DNA of 14,213 nt from a virus, in UHGV virus genome UHGV-0136963; one strand, given 5' to 3'. Of the stretch, positions 8,125-14,162 are shown piece after piece. Every line of letters begins with the position of its first letter. The stretch's first letter is position 1. The notes under the pieces were generated by a model. It was not told where the DNA came from. It saw nothing but the letters and a program-made list of their open reading frames with translations, and made no database searches. The translations under genes and the position numbers were made by a program.

Positions 8125-9513
8125 ATGGCTACTTGGCAAGGATCAAATGGCGGATTGTTGGCTGGTATCGGCGGCGTCAACTCAAACGCTCCGAGCGTAA
8201 ATGACATCGGCAACACGCTTCAGCTTATCAGGCAGAACAATGATATTGAGCGTTCAGGCGCTAACAATGTTGGGCTGACAGCTTTGCAAGGTCTTTCTGG
8301 TATTGCGGGTGTTTTTCAGCAGGAAAAGCAGGCTCAGCGGCAGAAAGAATTTCAGCAGGCATACGCTAATGCTTATGCGTCTGGTGATCGCGGTGCTTTG
8401 CGTCAGTTGGCTACTCAATATCCAGACCAGATTGAATCTGTTCGTAAAGGCATGGGATTCATTGATGAAGACCAGCGCAATTCTATCGGCACCTTAGCGG
8501 CTGGCGCCCGCCTTGCATCATCGTCTCCAGAAGCAATGCAATCATGGCTGCAAAACAACGCCAAGGAACTGACTCGCGTCGGTGTTGACCCTAATAACGT
8601 TGCTCAGATGTATCAGCAGAACCCTTCAGGATTTGGTGAGTTTGTTGATCACCTTGGAATGGCTGCTCTTGGTCCGATTGATTACTTCAATGTTCAGGAC
8701 AAGATGGCTGGTCGTGAGATTGATCGCGGAAAACTTGCAGAGACAATCCGCAGCAATCAGGCTGGCGAGGCGCTAACAGCACGAGGCCAGAACATCACGA
8801 TGCGCGGTCAGGACTTATCTGCTTCTACTGCGCGACGCGGGCAGGATTTGGCAATGCAGCGAGCGTCAACAAGAGGAACCGCTGGGAATGATGAGCGTAC
8901 AGTTCAGTTATCAGATGGCAGAACTGTAACGGTAGGCGGTAAACTTCACGGCGCTGGTGCTAATGCGTTCTACGAAGGCATCGACAACGAGGGGAATATG
9001 GTTCGCGTTCCTGCCAGTTCAATCGCAGCGCCTGCAACATCGTCTGCATCAGCACAAAACTATGCCATGAAGAAGGATATCGACGCGATCGCAAATGCAG
9101 ACGCTTCTGCTCTCGATTTCATGACAGGAATGACAGGCGGTGCAGGTAATCCAGCAATTGGTGCTGATGTTCGCAGCCGATTAACAGGAAAAGAGCAGCG
9201 CCAGTTATATAACTCAGCACAACGTATTCAGGGCAGAATGCAGAATCAGGGTGTGGCGGCAGCAAGGGACATGGGTGCCAGTGGTATTAACACCGTTGCA
9301 GAAGCGAAGATGTATTTTCAGGGGATGCCGCAGGTTGACTATTCAAGCCCGGAGGCTATGCAGCAGTCGATTCGTGAAATTCAGGAATACACCAACAATT
9401 ACAACCAACAATATAACGTTAATGTTGGTAAATCTCAGCGGAAGCAATCTCAACCTGCACAGGTATCACAGCCAGCAGCCAGCAGTAACTTTTCTTCACT
9501 ATGGGGTGATTAA
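8125..9513 (+). CDS. Ejection (internal virion) protein, homologue of P22 gene 20
   Basis: 462 aa (P22 gp20 about 471 aa), between the gp7 and gp16 homologues. AGGGG RBS before the ATG. Q/N/G-rich, low-complexity composition typical of P22-like ejection proteins. Confidence 0.85.
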
Positions 9514-11792
9514 TGGCTAAAGCATGGAAAGATGTTATCGCCTCTCCACAGTATCAGGCGTTAGCACCAGAACAAAAAGCGCAGGCTCAGGAGCAATACT
9601 TCAATGAAGTCGTGGCCCCGCAAGCCGGAGAAAATGCAGAGCAGGCAAAACAAGCGTTTTACTCTGCTTACCCTAGAGGTCTGCTAGAGAAGGGTAATAT
9701 TGACATTCACAATCGGCCTGTTGTTAAAAACTCTGATGGCAGCATTAGCACTGTGCGGAGCATGTCTACCAATATAGATGGTAGAGAGGTGCTGATTCCT
9801 ACCGTTAGTGATGATGGTCGCATTATGTCTGATGATGAAGCTATTGATAACTTCATGAGGACGGGAAAGCATCTTGGTATGTTCGACAATCCTGACGATG
9901 CCACTGCATATGCGGAGAGTCTGCACAACCAGCAAGCTGATGAATACCTCCCTAGGAAGAATCAAGCTACACAACAGCCTGTACAGCAAAGTACACAGGC
10001 AGCGCCACAGCAGCAAGGAGGTTTCATTTCCGACCTTGGCAATGCCGCGGCTGAAACTGGTCGCGGACTGGTGCAGGCTGGCGTGAACGTGGCAAACATA
10101 CCTGCATCAGTTGCCGATGCTGTAACAAGTGCGGCTGCATGGGCTGGCGGTAAACTCGGCATTGGCGATGGTACATATCAACCAGCGCCACGAGTAACAA
10201 CGCAGGGATTAGAGCAGGACTTTGGCCTTCAGCAAGGCGCGCTGACTCCACAAACGACAGAGGGCAGGGTGTTTGCTGAAGCATTGCCTTACCTCACTCC
10301 TGCTGGCGTTGAGAGAGCGGCGGTACAGGCACCAACACTTGCTGGTCGAATTGCTCAGGGGGCAACACGACTTCTCGCAGAAAACGCAGTTGGATCACTT
10401 GCTGCAAATAGTGCGAAAGATGATGCGGAAGCCCTCGCCACCGATTTAGGCGTTGGTGTGCTGGCTGGCGGTGCTATTAACGCTGCCGGAAGTGGATTAG
10501 GTGCTGCTTATCGTGGCGTTCGTGGTGCTATTGCGCCAGAAGCGCAGCAGGCTATCAGATTTGCAGAGCGTGAAGGTGTTCCTCTGCACACCACAGACCT
10601 GTTACAACCCACTTCCCGCGTCGGAAAAATGGCGCAGACTACAGCAGAAAATATCCCTCTTGCTGGCACAAGCGGAATGAGAGCAACGCAACAGGAAGCG
10701 AGAAGCCAGCTGGTGCAGAGATTTGCCGATAAATTCGGTGAGTATGATCCAGCGGTTGTTATTGACAGCCTTAAAGCGAAAACATCAGGAATTCGTCGTG
10801 CCGCCGGTAATCGACTGGAGCAGGTTCAGAATGCTATGGCCGGAGTAAACATTCAGCCTGCGCGAGCAATTCAGCAGATTGATACAGAAATATCTAACCT
10901 GCAGAAGCTTGGTAAGGTTGCTGATAACGAGACTATTTCAAAACTTCAGTCATATCGTGATGAGCTTGTTCGCAATGCTGGCCCTGATGGTCCTGTAAAT
11001 CTGGATTTGAAGCAATTAAGCGACCTGCGCAGCCAGTTCAGAATGGACGTGAAGGGTGAACGACCAGTGTTACCAAACCGTTCCGATGCCGCCATTCAGC
11101 GCGTTTACAAGGCAATGACTGACGATATCAATGGTGCCATTGGTCAGAATCTTGGCAACGATACTCTCCGTAAATATCAGCAGGCCAATGCCGTCTACGC
11201 TGACGAAGCGGCGAAACTAAAGAATACCAGGCTGAAGAATGTTCTCATGAAAGGCGACCTGACGCCGGAAGTTGTCAACAACATGCTATTCAGCAAGAAC
11301 AAATCGGAAATTAAGACGCTGTATAACTCAGTTGGTCGTGTTGGCAGGGCGCAAATGCGCAATGGCATCATTGGAAAGGCGATGGAGAAATCAGGCGGAT
11401 CCCCTGACCAGTTCCTTCGACAGCTTAACATCCTGCAAAACCAGACTGGCATCACATTTAAAGGTCAGGACGCTGCTTATCTGAAAGGATTGAAAAATTA
11501 CCTTCAGTCCACGCAGCAGGCTGCAAAAGCGGCAGTAACAACACCAACAGGGCAGCAAACCATCCCGTTCATTATCGGATATGGGACAGCAATGAACCCT
11601 GCGACAACTGGCGCAGCGGTAAGCTACGGACTTCTTACTCGCGCCTATGAGAGCGAGCCATTCAGAAATGCAATGCTCCGAATGGCAAACACCCCACGCG
11701 GATCAACAGCGTTCGAGAAAGCCATGCAGCAGGCACAAAAGGCCATTAACGCCCTGACTCAGGGTACCAAGTCTGATGCGCTGTCAGAATAG
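9513..11792 (+). CDS. Ejection (DNA-transfer) protein, homologue of P22 gene 16, with about 150 extra residues
   Basis: 759 aa. The central and C-terminal parts (…NIPASVADAVTSAAAWAGGKLGIGDGTYQPAPR…GALTPQTTEGR…IPLAGTSGMRATQQEAR…TDDINGAIGQ…KGDLTPEVVNNMLFSKNKSE…GSPDQFLRQLNILQNQTGITFKG…) match P22 gp16 as recalled. P22 gp16 is about 609 aa from memory. The start overlaps the gp20 stop (TAATG). Confidence 0.9.
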   Translation: MAKAWKDVIASPQYQALAPEQKAQAQEQYFNEVVAPQAGENAEQAKQAFYSAYPRGLLEKGNIDIHNRPVVKNSDGSISTVRSMSTNIDGREVLIPTVSDDGRIMSDDEAIDNFMRTGKHLGMFDNPDDATAYAESLHNQQADEYLPRKNQATQQPVQQSTQAAPQQQGGFISDLGNAAAETGRGLVQAGVNVANIPASVADAVTSAAAWAGGKLGIGDGTYQPAPRVTTQGLEQDFGLQQGALTPQTTEGRVFAEALPYLTPAGVERAAVQAPTLAGRIAQGATRLLAENAVGSLAANSAKDDAEALATDLGVGVLAGGAINAAGSGLGAAYRGVRGAIAPEAQQAIRFAEREGVPLHTTDLLQPTSRVGKMAQTTAENIPLAGTSGMRATQQEARSQLVQRFADKFGEYDPAVVIDSLKAKTSGIRRAAGNRLEQVQNAMAGVNIQPARAIQQIDTEISNLQKLGKVADNETISKLQSYRDELVRNAGPDGPVNLDLKQLSDLRSQFRMDVKGERPVLPNRSDAAIQRVYKAMTDDINGAIGQNLGNDTLRKYQQANAVYADEAAKLKNTRLKNVLMKGDLTPEVVNNMLFSKNKSEIKTLYNSVGRVGRAQMRNGIIGKAMEKSGGSPDQFLRQLNILQNQTGITFKGQDAAYLKGLKNYLQSTQQAAKAAVTTPTGQQTIPFIIGYGTAMNPATTGAAVSYGLLTRAYESEPFRNAMLRMANTPRGSTAFEKAMQQAQKAINALTQGTKSDALSE

Positions 11793-11881: not shown

Positions 11882-12145
11882 TTAACTGCTGTCTTTTTTA
11901 TATAGCTCCTTGAGCGTATCAAAGACAATTTTCTTAACCATATCAGATTGTTGTTCTGCCATACGCTCTGCATCGTCAATGTAAACTGATGCAGAGCTTT
12001 GTTTAGCCAATGATTCTTCAATCGCTGCAATTATCTCTGAGTTCAGCGACCTGTTATTCATTTTCGCGCGCTGTTTAATTTTCGCGTGGAGTTCATGCGG
12101 AAGTCTCAAGTGAAACTGCGCCTCGTCGTATTTGCTGTACATCAT
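11882..12145 (-). CDS. mnt: Mnt-like ribbon-helix-helix transcriptional repressor (Arc/Mnt family)
   Basis: The 87-aa product MMYSKYDEAQFHLRLPHELHAKIKQRAKMNNRSLNSEIIAAIEESLAKQSSASVYIDDAERMAEQQSDMVKKIVFDTLKELYKKDSS aligns along its length with P22 Mnt as recalled (…HFNFRMPMEVREKLKFRAEANGRSMNSELLQIVQDAL…NDAERLADEQSELVKKMVFDTLKDLYKKTT). I chose the ATGATG start at 12145/12142 because GGTGAGG lies 5-6 nt upstream; the ORF-track start at 12175 would add 10 residues with no RBS. Confidence 0.9.
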   Translation of the reverse strand: MMYSKYDEAQFHLRLPHELHAKIKQRAKMNNRSLNSEIIAAIEESLAKQSSASVYIDDAERMAEQQSDMVKKIVFDTLKELYKKDSS

Positions 12146-12263
12146 TGATGCCTCACCAGTTGGGTGGAATGGCATCGTAACCTACTGGATAAATACTCAA
12201 TAGTACCATTTCGGTATGCAATCACATCATGGTTGCATCATATCATTCGTCTGGAGCAATGAA
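12146..12263. promoter_or_regulatory. Divergent intergenic region between mnt and the tailspike gene; candidate mnt promoter and operator
   Basis: 118-bp non-coding gap between divergently oriented genes. It contains the inverted repeat ATGCAA (12216-12221) / TTGCAT (12233-12238) with an 11-bp spacer, each arm reading as a TTGCAT -35-like hexamer on one strand. On the minus strand TGgTACTAT is an extended -10-like element about 50 nt upstream of the mnt start. Also present: CCAGT (12156-12160) / ACTGG (12184-12188), and TACT-N4-AGTA (12194-12205). No experimental support. Confidence 0.35.
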
Positions 12264-14162
12264 ATGTCAGATATCACCGCAAATGTTGTGGTAAGCATGC
12301 CTTCGCAACTCTTCACTATGGCTCGTTCTTTTAAAGCCGTAGCCAATGGTAAAATTTATATCGGTAAAATTGACACTGACCCGGAAAACCCTGAAAACCA
12401 GATTCAGGTTTATGTGGAGAACGAAGACGGCTCTCACGTTCCTGTTTCGCAACCAATCATCATTAACGCTGCTGGTTACCCTGTATATAACGGACAGATT
12501 GCCAAGTTCGTAACTGTGCAAGGCCACTCTATGGCTGTTTATGATGCATATGGTGTGCAGCAGTTCTATTTTCCTAATTTACTGAAGTATGATCCTGATC
12601 AGTTGCGAGTTGATATTTCATCAAACAATGGAGATAAGATTGTCGGGAGCACATATGGTGGTAATGTTTATAGCGATTACATGCCATATGTATACAAAAA
12701 ATCTGGAGATATGTCAGTTGGCGGAGTGATATTAAATAAATACGAATCATTCAAATATTCAGATGGAATGTATTATTCATATATAGGAAATATACCAATT
12801 GATGGTTATATAGTTACGCCAGGCTCCACTCCAGACTCAACATGGGTGTGTGTTGGATTTCTTTCTGGGTATTCAGTAGATGACCCAAGAAATTACGGAG
12901 CAAAACCATGCGATCCAACATTCGACAGCTCTGATGCACTGGATTTGTGGAGAGATAGTATAATCAAGAGAAATCGCAAAACAACTTACTCAACTGATAG
13001 AGAAGATCCAAACATGTACAATTTGGGTGGCACTGTTTTTGATATGACTCAGGGCACTTACTATGTATCACGTCCATTTACAATAACAGATTGTTTGAAT
13101 TTTTCTATGTTGAATCCATCTCTTTTAGCAATTGGAGCATTTCCTTCGACAGAACCTGTTCTAGATTTTCGTAAAGTTAACGGCTCTAGACCAATTGAAA
13201 ACATCGTGGTATTTAATCCTAATATCGATGCTAACTGGAAAGCTTCCGGCGCAATTAGGGTTTATGATGACTTTTTGAAAGTGACTATATGGGGAGGTCT
13301 ACTGACAAGATACTTGCGTTATGGATTAAAGACTGAACCAAATGACTCACAGCCACATGAATTAAATGTGGGAAAAACTTTTATATTTCAACAACCAGAT
13401 TGGAATGCTTCTTACCCAACTAACGTTACAGATGGCGTTGGCTTGGATATCAACAACTATGATAATAACTTCTCAGACTTAGTTATTGGTTCACAGTATG
13501 CAGATGTTATGTATTTACGTAAAGGAGCAAATTCTTTTAGTAATAGTCATTTTTATCCAAATCAGTCTGCTGATAGCGCAAAAGGGCGTGTGGTTATAAT
13601 GTCTAACGCAGATATTTTTGTTGGATGCTATTTCGATGGATGCTTAATTGAATCAAACTCAGACGGTGCGAGATTTACTGTTAGCTCATGCAACTGGTTA
13701 GTACCTGAACATGGAGTTGCAATAAATCTTATATCAAATCCGTTTCAGGTTAAGATAACAGGTTGCAGATTCCGTAATACAACGGGAACTGTAATGCCAC
13801 TTAGCGTTATTCGCATGAAGACCATAGCAGAAGGAAGATCATCCAGGCCAGATATAAGAAACAACTTTTCTGAAGGTTGCCAATCTATATCAACATCAGG
13901 TAGGGAGTTTTTCACACTAACAGTATCTGGATCGTCAAGGGTTGTAACAAGAGCAATACCAGATCAATTCCAGCCAGCAAATACAGTATCAATTCAGGAG
14001 GTAGCAGCAAACACAAACGATGATACATGGCTTATAAAAGCTAGATTAATTAGTTCAAGCCAAGTAAGGATCAGGCCATACAATATGGATACAGGGTGGT
14101 CATCACAAGCAACGTATTCAGGTCAGGTTGTACTTATTTATAATTCAGAAAATGACATGTAA
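12264..14162 (+). CDS. Tailspike protein, homologue of P22 gene 9; P22-like head-binding domain plus a divergent receptor-binding domain
   Basis: 632 aa. N-terminus [97 protein letters not shown]…LKYDPDQ is near-identical to the P22 tailspike head-binding domain ([40 protein letters not shown]…). Start placed at the ATG at 12264 (GGAG 8 nt upstream) rather than the ORF-track ATG at 12216. The remainder does not resemble the P22 receptor-binding domain. Confidence 0.93.

What the first reader, a model, noticed from the sequence alone, without database searches (positions are those of the whole stretch)
11882..12145. Orphan Mnt-like repressor whose DNA-reading strand looks like Arc, not Mnt
The protein has the Mnt body, including the C-terminal helix DAERMAEQQSDMVKKIVFDTLKELYKK that in P22 Mnt forms the tetramerisation domain. 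Its N-terminal recognition strand reads QFHLRLP, closer to Arc (QFNLRWP) than to Mnt (HFNFRMP). In the Arc/Mnt family the N-terminal strand residues set operator specificity, and swapping the N-terminal residues between Arc and Mnt swaps specificity. This therefore looks like a natural Arc-strand / Mnt-body chimera with an operator that may differ from both. Its normal target, the ant antirepressor with arc, is absent: only 118 bp separate it from the tailspike gene.
Basis: partly seen in the sequence, partly recalled or inferred. Interest (0 to 1): 0.65.

Follow-up and report, generated by a model that had tools for sequence, protein, structure and literature searches.

The report
Mnt-only repressor cassette with its own operator
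This is a real, widespread variant of the phage P22 Mnt repressor that has lost the antirepressor gene it normally controls but kept a matching, changed DNA target beside its own promoter; the layout was already known, and the changed specificity is only a modest addition.

Summary
The ORF is real. It lies on the minus strand at 11882-12142 (or 12145) and encodes 86-87 aa with an Arc-type ribbon-helix-helix domain plus the Mnt tetramerisation domain. It sits alone between the gene-16 homologue and the tailspike gene of a P22-like prophage.

The strand QFHLRLP is indeed closer to Arc (5/7) than to P22 Mnt (3/7). It is not an Arc graft: the rest of the DNA-binding domain is no more Arc-like (35% vs 41%), and the central contact residue is His, unlike both.

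About 250 related loci fall into three strand classes. Each pairs, with no cross-pairings, with its own 17-bp dyad at the position of the P22 mnt operator:
- HFNFRMP with GGTCCACnGTGGACC, always with arc (19/19) and almost always ant (18/19).
- QFNLRLP with AGACCACnGTGGTCT, orphan.
- QFHLRL(P/T/S) with ATACCGAAATGGTAC, orphan.

The window's predicted operator is 12202-12218.

The allele matches in 417 of 5426 complete E. coli genomes and is in phages Sf101 and IME10. It is under purifying selection (dN/dS 0.13).

Mnt-only regions are already described for ST64T, ST104 and L. What the repressor does without ant remains unknown; autoregulation is the best guess.

The parts
11882..12142 (-). mnt-like gene, 86 aa plus stop. 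An alternative ATG lies 3 nt upstream at 12145. The ATG at 12175 used in the Sf101 annotation lies inside the promoter -10 region.
   Evidence: dN/dS is 0.13 among 52 unique alleles.
12098..12118 (-). Codons for the recognition beta-strand QFHLRLP. By alignment with Arc Q9/N11/R13 and Mnt H6/N8/R10, the DNA-facing residues are Gln9, His11 and Arg13.
   Evidence: Read directly from the sequence and from alignment A1. The assignment of contact residues comes from the literature (Raumann 1994; Knight and Sauer 1989, cited in PMC3413123).
11993..12121 (-). Ribbon-helix-helix (Arc-like) DNA-binding domain, residues about 8-50.
   Evidence: Pfam PF03869, E 7.8e-15; PDB 1mnt, E 3.4e-19.
11891..11977 (-). 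C-terminal Mnt tetramerisation domain, residues 56-84.
   Evidence: Pfam PF11423, 52.7 bits; PDB 1qey, E 1.7e-8.
12151..12157 (-). Shine-Dalgarno GGTGAGG of mnt.
   Evidence: It is conserved in all orphan classes.
12174..12200 (-). Homologue of the P22 Pmnt promoter: -35 TTGAGT (12195-12200) and -10 TACGAT (12174-12179). The spacer is only 15 nt in this allele class, against 17 in the others.
   Evidence: Alignment with the annotated P22 promoter; class tallies; conservation of 98% or more at the -35 TTG and across the -10.
12202..12218 (.). Predicted Mnt operator: a 17-bp element, AGTACCATTTCGGTATG on the + strand, with core dyad TACC-N5-GGTA at 12204-12216. It sits at the position homologous to the P22 mnt operator, directly next to the -35 of Pmnt.
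   Evidence: (0.04 matches expected by chance in the window, 1 found).
12242..12270 (-). Promoter-like match CTGACA-17-AATGAT, reading towards mnt from upstream of the operator. It is a consensus match only.
   Evidence: 2 matches found in the region; shuffles give 1.2.
12264..14162 (+). Tailspike gene. The N-terminal head-binding domain is conserved; GGAG lies at 12253-12256.
9513..11792 (+). Homologue of the P22 gene 16 injection / DNA-transfer protein; last late-operon gene before mnt.
   Evidence: phrog_770, E 6.9e-234.

Best explanation
**What it is**
- The gene encodes a genuine Mnt-family repressor: an RHH dimer-of-dimers with the Mnt tetramerisation helix.
- It belongs to a distinct specificity class whose DNA-facing strand residues are Gln-His-Arg.
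- It is what remains of the P22-type immI / 'ant moron' after loss of arc, sar and ant.
- In this class mnt is the only gene between gene 16 and the tailspike gene.

**What it is predicted to bind (inferred)**
- One site: the 17-bp element at 12202-12218, core TACC-N5-GGTA.
- This element occupies exactly the place of the P22 mnt operator, next to the -35 of the Pmnt homologue.
- It has changed together with the strand.

**What that binding probably does (inferred)**
- The Pant promoter that Mnt represses in P22 is degenerate here. The most likely consequence of binding is therefore control of its own promoter (autoregulation).
- Because the bound tetramer lies about 50 bp upstream of the tailspike start, it may also affect polymerases reading towards the tailspike gene.

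**Shown versus inferred**
- Shown: family membership, absence of arc and ant, positional homology of the intergenic region, strict strand-operator pairing, and purifying selection.
- Inferred: actual binding to the dyad, and any regulatory output.
For: **Family**
- Pfam Arc plus Repressor_Mnt.
- PDB 1mnt and 1qey.

**Homology of the intergenic region**
- The mnt-upstream regions of the window, Sf101, IME10, VSe13, JEP4, Gally and ST160 align with the annotated P22 Omnt/Pmnt/Pant region.

**Strand-operator pairing in about 250 loci**
- HFNFRMP pairs with GGTCCAC(C/G)GTGGACC in 18/18 loci scored.
- QFNLRLP pairs with AGACCACnGTGGTCT in 69/69.
- QFHLRL(P/T/S) pairs with (A/G)TACC(G/T/A)A(A/G)A(T/C)GGTAC in about 160/160.
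- The dyad axis lies at the same distance from the -35 in all classes.
- There are no cross-pairings, although C-terminal domain types and distal flanks reassort.

**Conservation and placement of the dyad**
- TACC-N5-GGTA lies about 80 nt upstream of the mnt start in 83/88 QFHLRLP loci and 65/67 QFHLRLT loci. It never lies there in the other classes.
- The dyad core and the promoter hexamers are 98% or more conserved, while the tailspike-proximal part of the spacer is variable.
- Chance expectation for the core in the window is 0.04.

**Selection**
- dN/dS is 0.13 in the window class and 0.10 in the ST64T-type class.

**Orphan state**
- 0 of 88 QFHLRLP loci have an arc or ant hit within 3 kb.
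- In 74 of the 78 loci where the gene 16 end could be placed, gene 16 ends within about 100 bp of the mnt stop.
- The complete Sf101 genome has no arc or ant homologue and only one perfect copy of the dyad (one further match has three mismatches, no more than chance predicts).
Against: - There is no experimental evidence of binding.
- The window-class dyad is much less symmetric (4-5 bp arms) than the P22 operator (8 bp arms). An unbiased palindrome scan did not rank it first.
- The strand codons and the operator lie within about 100 bp of each other. There are effectively only three classes, so linkage alone could keep them paired.
- The Pmnt homologue has a 15-nt spacer in this class, which would make a poor sigma-70 promoter.
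- No target that would explain selection has been found.
- In the P22-like phage Kapi1, which carries a different Mnt-like allele, mnt was not detectably expressed in lysogens (PMC12922286).
Confidence: 0.62

Rival explanations
1. One reading: a natural chimera in which an Arc recognition strand was grafted onto an Mnt body, giving Arc-like or hybrid specificity.
For: The strand is 5/7 (5/8 with the preceding residue) identical to Arc against 3/7 to P22 Mnt. The N-terminal arm before Gln is the same length as in Arc.
Against: - The helices are 35% identical to Arc and 41% to Mnt; the whole RHH domain is 40% identical to each.
- The middle contact residue is His, not Asn.
- The Q..L.R.P pattern is common to about 230 orphan Mnt proteins. 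That includes the QFNLRLP class, whose representative ST160 is closer to Arc than the window protein is.
- No Arc operator is present.
- The conserved dyad is unlike the Arc operator.
Confidence: 0.05
2. A decaying remnant of immI: a non-functional leftover gene and site that persist only because they were deleted around recently.
For: PMC8022706 raises this possibility for the phage L mnt-like gene. Pant is degenerate and the Pmnt spacer is 15 nt. One relative (L154) carries a 3' fragment of ant next to mnt.
Against: - dN/dS is 0.13 over 52 distinct alleles, with an intact ORF in 88/88 loci.
- The operator core and promoter hexamers are conserved across sub-classes whose synonymous sites are saturated: window vs JEP4 N-domain dS is about 2.
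- The allele matches in 417 of 5426 complete E. coli genomes.
Confidence: 0.13
3. Trans-acting immunity: the resident Mnt represses the ant promoter of superinfecting phages, or an ant elsewhere in the genome, and so protects the prophage from induction.
For: In P22, Mnt does repress ant of incoming phage (established knowledge). Some QFHLRLT-class relatives carry ant-like genes 1-2.4 kb away.
Against: - No locus of the QFHLR or QFNLR classes has the dyad in front of an arc or ant gene.
- Those distant ant modules have their own RHH regulators and no TACC-N5-GGTA site.
- An exact 15-mer scan of IMG/VR gave 71 hits beside mnt.
- Sf101 has no ant.
- The orphan classes have moved away from the P22 operator, the only type seen with ant.
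Confidence: 0.1
4. A gate on tailspike expression: the bound tetramer, and convergent Pmnt transcription, limit read-through from gene 16 into the tailspike gene in the prophage, or tune it late in infection.
For: mnt always lies about 120-140 nt upstream of, and divergent from, the tailspike gene. PMC2629481, citing Adams et al. 1985, notes that the P22 region affects how often late transcripts reach gene 9 and that Mnt and Arc may take part. No terminator is predicted on either side of mnt.
Against: - The operator-to-tailspike distance is not fixed: it is about 54 nt here, about 65 nt in other flank types, and more than 600 nt where an HNH gene is inserted.
- P22-like phages without mnt, such as Sf6, make tailspike normally.
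- There are no direct data.
Confidence: 0.1

Closest known systems
P22 / epsilon34 Mnt repressor (immI maintenance repressor)
   Same: - Two-domain architecture: RHH plus Mnt tetramerisation helix.
- Same genomic slot between gene 16 and the tailspike gene, on the strand opposite the late operon.
- Homologous Pmnt region with a dyad directly next to the -35.
   Different: - 49% identity overall and 40% in the RHH domain.
- Strand QFHLRLP instead of HFNFRMP.
- Dyad ATACCGAAATGGTAC instead of GGTCCACCGTGGACC.
- No Pant, arc, sar or ant.
- Pmnt spacer of 15 nt, not 17.
Mnt-only 'ant morons' of the type described for ST64T / ST104 / L; sequences examined here were SE1, ST160 and Gally
   Same: Orphan mnt divergent from the tailspike gene without arc or ant. 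Described in PMC2629481 and PMC8022706, where its function is left open.
   Different: - Those proteins have the strand QFNLRLP and the dyad AGACCACnGTGGTCT.
- They usually have an extra ORF between gene 16 and mnt: the gap is about 1 kb against about 90 bp here.
- RHH identity to the window protein is 55%.
Mnt-like genes of Escherichia phages Sf101 and IME10 and of E. coli prophages
   Same: 97-99% identical protein with the same intergenic region and dyad. This is the same allele.
   Different: None of substance. The databases call it 'partition protein ATPase' (Sf101, from phrog_795), leave it unannotated (IME10), or call it 'Arc family DNA-binding protein' (PGAP).
P22 Arc repressor
   Same: RHH fold. 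Strand residues Q, F, L, R and P are shared, and the N-terminal arm is the same length.
   Different: - Arc is 53 aa with no tetramerisation domain and is co-transcribed with ant.
- Its contact triad is Q-N-R, against Q-H-R here.
- Its 21-bp operator is absent from the window.

Membership tests
Mnt repressor family (P22 immI) | N-terminal ribbon-helix-helix (Arc-like) DNA-binding domain | tested here: met
   PF03869, E 7.8e-15; 1mnt, E 3.4e-19 over residues 6-79.
Mnt repressor family (P22 immI) | C-terminal helix that tetramerises two dimers | tested here: met
   By sequence only: PF11423 at 52.7 bits against a cut-off of 20.9; 1qey, E 1.7e-8. The oligomeric state itself was not tested.
Mnt repressor family (P22 immI) | Gene lies between gene 16 and the tailspike gene, antisense to the late operon, with its own promoter | tested here: met
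   The promoter is inferred from homology, and its spacer is 15 nt.
Mnt repressor family (P22 immI) | About 17-bp dyad operator next to Pmnt | tested here: met
   A positionally homologous dyad at 12202-12218 is conserved and class-specific. Binding was not tested.
Mnt repressor family (P22 immI) | Represses Pant, which drives arc and ant | tested here: not met
   No arc or ant in the window, in 88/88 loci of the class, or in the whole Sf101 genome. The Pant hexamers are degenerate.
Mnt repressor family (P22 immI) | Specific binding of a tetramer to the operator in vitro | not testable with these tools
   Needs EMSA or footprinting.
Arc repressor | Small (about 53 aa) RHH-only protein co-transcribed with ant | tested here: not met
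   The protein is 86 aa with an Mnt C-terminal domain, and there is no ant.
Arc repressor | DNA-contact residues Gln9, Asn11, Arg13 and the 21-bp arc operator | tested here: not met
   The triad here is Gln-His-Arg. No arc operator is found within 3 mismatches.
Mnt-only 'ant moron' of P22-like phages (ST64T / L type) | mnt present without arc or ant between gene 16 and the tailspike gene | tested here: met
   described in PMC2629481 and PMC8022706.
Mnt-only 'ant moron' of P22-like phages (ST64T / L type) | Same Mnt allele and operator as the orphan QFNLRLP class (ST160 / SE1 / Gally examined here): QFNLRLP with AGACCACnGTGGTCT | tested here: not met
   The window has QFHLRLP with ATACCGAAATGGTAC.

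The most novel reading that the evidence does not exclude
Orphan Mnt cassettes form at least two co-evolved strand-operator specificities (Gln-Asn-Arg and Gln-His-Arg). Both are kept by purifying selection in hundreds of prophages that have no antirepressor. This would mean Mnt has a second, undescribed job, such as gating transcription into the tailspike gene or acting against related superinfecting phages. Together with P22 Mnt, the three classes would give a natural recognition-code series for beta-sheet DNA readers. The apparent correspondences are: Arg vs Tyr four residues before the strand with G:C vs T:A; His vs Gln with T:A vs A:T; and Asn vs His with the inner AC vs GA.
Probability: 0.3. 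Interest if true: 0.55.

Novelty: new member of a known kind. Interest (0 to 1): 0.33.

Why it matters
Arc and Mnt are textbook models for DNA recognition by beta-sheets, and their specificity has so far been changed only by laboratory swaps and mutants. The three natural strand classes, each with its own operator at one fixed position, give ready-made test pairs for that recognition code.

The data also argue that Mnt-only regions are maintained rather than decaying. That sharpens a question left open in the ST64T, L and epsilon34 genome papers: what does Mnt do when there is no antirepressor to control?

Practically, the gene is mis-annotated in RefSeq phage records as 'partition protein ATPase' and should be called an Mnt-family repressor.

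Tried and rejected
- **Arc graft.** Rejected from per-segment identities.
- **A second operator or an ant target.**
  - Dyad searches in the window and in the whole Sf101 genome found only the one perfect site, plus a three-mismatch near-match at chance level.
  - The TACC-N5-GGTA scan of all loci found class-specific sites only at about -80.
  - The exact 15-mer scan of IMG/VR found no ant-linked copy among 120 rows.
- **A Pant-like promoter driving the tailspike gene.** No + strand sigma-70 match was found, and the homologous hexamers are degenerate in all orphan classes.
- **An sRNA like sar, a terminator or a structured leader.** No Rfam hit, no terminator, and folding z-scores of -0.1 and -1.7.
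- **Unbiased best-palindrome scan of the upstream region.** It recovered the P22 and ST64T-type operators but not the window-class dyad, which has short arms. The assignment therefore rests on positional homology.
- **Genome-contig scan.** It returned only 8 loci and added little.
- **Literature.** Adams et al. 1985 (PMC255003) is not held. A search for the Mnt contact-residue papers found nothing usable.

Full report
**1. What is at the coordinates**

The minus-strand ORF 11882-12145 is real. It has an Arc-type ribbon-helix-helix domain (PF03869, E 7.8e-15) and the Mnt C-terminal domain (PF11423, 52.7 bits against a cut-off of 20.9). Its best solved relatives are P22 Mnt 1mnt (E 3.4e-19) and the Mnt tetramerisation domain 1qey (E 1.7e-8). 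Arc itself scores only 1e-3.

Most relatives have a single start codon that corresponds to window 12142, behind a GGTGAGG ribosome-binding site. The window has ATGATG, so the protein is probably 86 aa. The longer 97-aa reading used for Sf101 starts inside the promoter -10 region.

The flanking genes are a gene-16-type DNA-transfer protein (9513-11792, phrog_770) and a tailspike gene. The conserved head-binding domain of the tailspike starts at 12264. The window is therefore the late region of a P22-like (Lederbergvirus) prophage. mnt is the only gene between gene 16 and the tailspike gene, with 89 bp on one side and 118-121 bp on the other.

**2. How common it is**

- The same allele (97-100% protein identity) is in phages Sf101 and IME10 and in an E. 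coli O26 phage fragment.
- At least 80 IMG/VR viral contigs carry it.
- It matches 417 of 5426 complete E. coli genomes, 159 of them over 80% or more of the query. There it is annotated 'Arc family DNA-binding protein'.
- In the loci gathered, 88 carry the strand QFHLRLP. None has a P22-type arc or ant within 3 kb.
- In 86 of those 88 the tailspike gene is divergent upstream, usually about 120 nt away.
- In 74 of the 78 loci where the gene 16 end could be placed, gene 16 ends within about 100 bp of the mnt stop.
- The complete genome of Sf101 has no arc or ant homologue anywhere.

The absence of arc and ant is therefore a property of this phage type, not an effect of where the window ends.

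**3. The orphan layout is already known**

Villafane et al. 2008 named this variable region the 'ant moron'. They noted that ST64T, ST104 and Para1 keep only mnt plus one unknown gene (PMC2629481). Zaworski et al. [quoted passage not shown] I confirmed the same layout in ST160, Gally, JEP4 and VSe13.

**4. Is it an Arc-strand / Mnt-body chimera?**

QFHLRLP shares 5 of 7 residues with Arc (QFNLRWP) and 3 of 7 with P22 Mnt (HFNFRMP). Three things argue against a graft.

- The helices of the domain are 35% identical to Arc and 41% to Mnt. The domain as a whole is 40% identical to each.
- The Gln and Leu strand positions shared with Arc also occur in the other orphan strand class, QFNLRLP. The ST160 and Gally proteins of that class are closer to Arc in the strand (7/8) than the window protein is.
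- By alignment with Arc Q9/N11/R13 and Mnt H6/N8/R10, the three residues expected to face the DNA are Gln-His-Arg, so the middle one differs from both. The contact assignments are from the literature; Knight and Sauer 1989 and Raumann et al. 1994/1995 are cited in PMC3413123.

The data do point to mosaicism, but between Mnt alleles. The JEP4-type protein shares 83% of the RHH domain with the window protein and only 31% of the C-terminal part. Its C-terminus does not match the Pfam Mnt domain.

**5. The operator**

The mnt-upstream regions of the orphan phages align with the annotated P22 Omnt/Pmnt/Pant region. Taking the 19 bases directly 5' of the Pmnt -35 in every locus gives a strict three-way pairing.

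| Strand class | Element next to the -35 | Loci |
|---|---|---|
| HFNFRMP | AGGTCCAC(C/G)GTGGACCT | 18/18 |
| QFNLRLP | (A/G)AGACCACnGTGGTCTT | 69/69, a few with single mismatches |
| QFHLRL(P/T/S) | (A/G)TACC(G/T/A)A(A/G)A(T/C)GGTAC | about 160/160 |

- The symmetry axis is at the same distance from the -35 in all three classes.
- The CC/GG pair is invariant, and the positions around it differ by class.
- No cross-pairing occurs, although C-terminal domain types and the distal flank reassort.
- TACC-N5-GGTA lies about 80 nt before the mnt start in 83/88 QFHLRLP loci and 65/67 QFHLRLT loci. It never lies there in the other classes.
- Across 96 distinct upstream sequences of the QFHLRL classes, the dyad core, the -35 TTG and the -10 TACGATGC are 98% or more conserved. 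The tailspike-proximal part is variable.
- In the window the element is 12202-12218, with the core at 12204-12216. The core pattern is expected 0.04 times by chance in 14 kb.
- Neither P22 operator is present.

An apparent residue-to-base correspondence is my inference only:
- Arg vs Tyr four residues before the strand goes with G:C vs T:A at the outer position.
- His vs Gln goes with T:A vs A:T.
- Asn vs His goes with the inner AC vs GA.

Caveats:
- The window-class dyad has only 4-5 bp arms, and an unbiased palindrome scan did not pick it out.
- The strand codons and the site are within about 100 bp of each other, so linkage alone could keep them paired.
- There are only three classes.

**6. 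Is the gene maintained?**

Among 52 distinct coding sequences of the window class, mean dS is 0.093 and mean dN is 0.012, a ratio of 0.13. The ST64T-type orphan class gives 0.10. The N-terminal domains of the window and JEP4 alleles are 83% identical in protein, although their synonymous sites are saturated (dS about 2). This is purifying selection, not decay.

**7. What it might do**

- The P22 Pant hexamers are degenerate in all orphan classes, and no + strand promoter is predicted. Mnt is therefore not repressing a Pant-like promoter that drives the tailspike gene.
- The Pmnt homologue is retained, but with a 15-nt spacer in this class (17 nt in the others).
- A promoter-like match, CTGACA-17-AATGAT (12270 to 12242, minus strand), lies upstream of the dyad. 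If it is used, the dyad would lie downstream of its start and give ordinary autorepression.
- No second copy of the operator was found in the window, in Sf101 or beside ant-like genes. In IMG/VR the exact 15-mer occurs beside mnt or in unrelated contigs.
- Some QFHLRLT-class relatives carry a separate ant module between gene 16 and mnt. It has its own two RHH genes and no such dyad.
- There is no Rfam hit, no terminator and no unusual RNA structure.

The best-supported picture is a self-contained repressor-operator-promoter cassette that at least regulates itself. A role in limiting read-through into the tailspike gene was suggested for the P22 region by Villafane et al., citing Adams et al. 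1985. That role, and a role in trans against other phages, remain possible but unsupported.

**8. Verdict**

It is partly wrong: this is not an Arc chimera and not a new kind of orphan.

It is a very common allele of a known family in a known layout. The one modestly new point is the natural three-class strand-operator series and the evidence that orphan mnt is under selection.

Noticed in passing
L014, L049, L056, L061, L064, L066, L072, L074, L080, L086 (about 670-730 bp between mnt and the tailspike gene); also Kapi1 L378:3930-4430: In about 10 of 88 related loci, an HNH_3 + AP2 homing-endonuclease gene (166 or 179 aa, two unrelated versions) is inserted just after the tailspike start-codon region. 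It is oriented like mnt. The original 'MSDIT' start remains as a stub, and Kapi1 has the same kind of insertion.
   Followed up: partly
window 11882-12175; Sf101 NC_027398.1 14284-14577: RefSeq phage records name Mnt homologues, including that of P22 itself, 'partition protein ATPase'. The name matches the label of phrog_795, the best PHROG hit, and looks like a propagated mis-annotation. The Sf101 CDS also starts at an upstream ATG that lies inside the promoter -10 region.
   Followed up: partly
window 12174-12200: The homologue of the P22 Pmnt promoter has a 15-nt spacer in the window's allele class (77 of 86 loci). In the JEP4, ST64T and P22 types it is 17 nt. The cause is a 2-bp deletion, and whether the promoter still works is unknown.
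   Followed up: no
L123, L107, L103 and other QFHLRLT-class loci, 1-3 kb downstream of mnt: A second, complete antirepressor module lies between gene 16 and the orphan mnt, convergent with it. It has Ant up to 85% identical to P22 Ant, or Rha/KilA-type genes, plus two divergent small RHH genes. These phages therefore carry two Mnt/Arc-like regulators of different specificity.
   Followed up: partly
L154, 116-445 nt upstream of mnt: One QFHLRLT-class locus keeps the last ~66-110 codons of ant (93% identical to P22 Ant over 110 aa), followed by a GC-rich hairpin and T-run that looks like the ant terminator, between mnt and the tailspike gene. It looks like a snapshot of deletion or recombination in this region.
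   Followed up: no
window 12264-14162: Nearly all PHROG matches to the tailspike protein cover only residues 1 to about 135, the head-binding domain. One match reaches residue 213. The receptor-binding part, about 420 aa, has no PHROG match above threshold.
   Followed up: no
window 12142-12147: The window has a tandem ATGATG at the mnt start, where nearly all relatives have AAGGATG. This single-base difference creates a second in-frame start.
   Followed up: no
PDB 9pio chain G: A recently deposited 79-aa 'Arc family DNA-binding protein' matches the RHH domain weakly (E 0.002). I did not look into what complex it belongs to.
   Followed up: no
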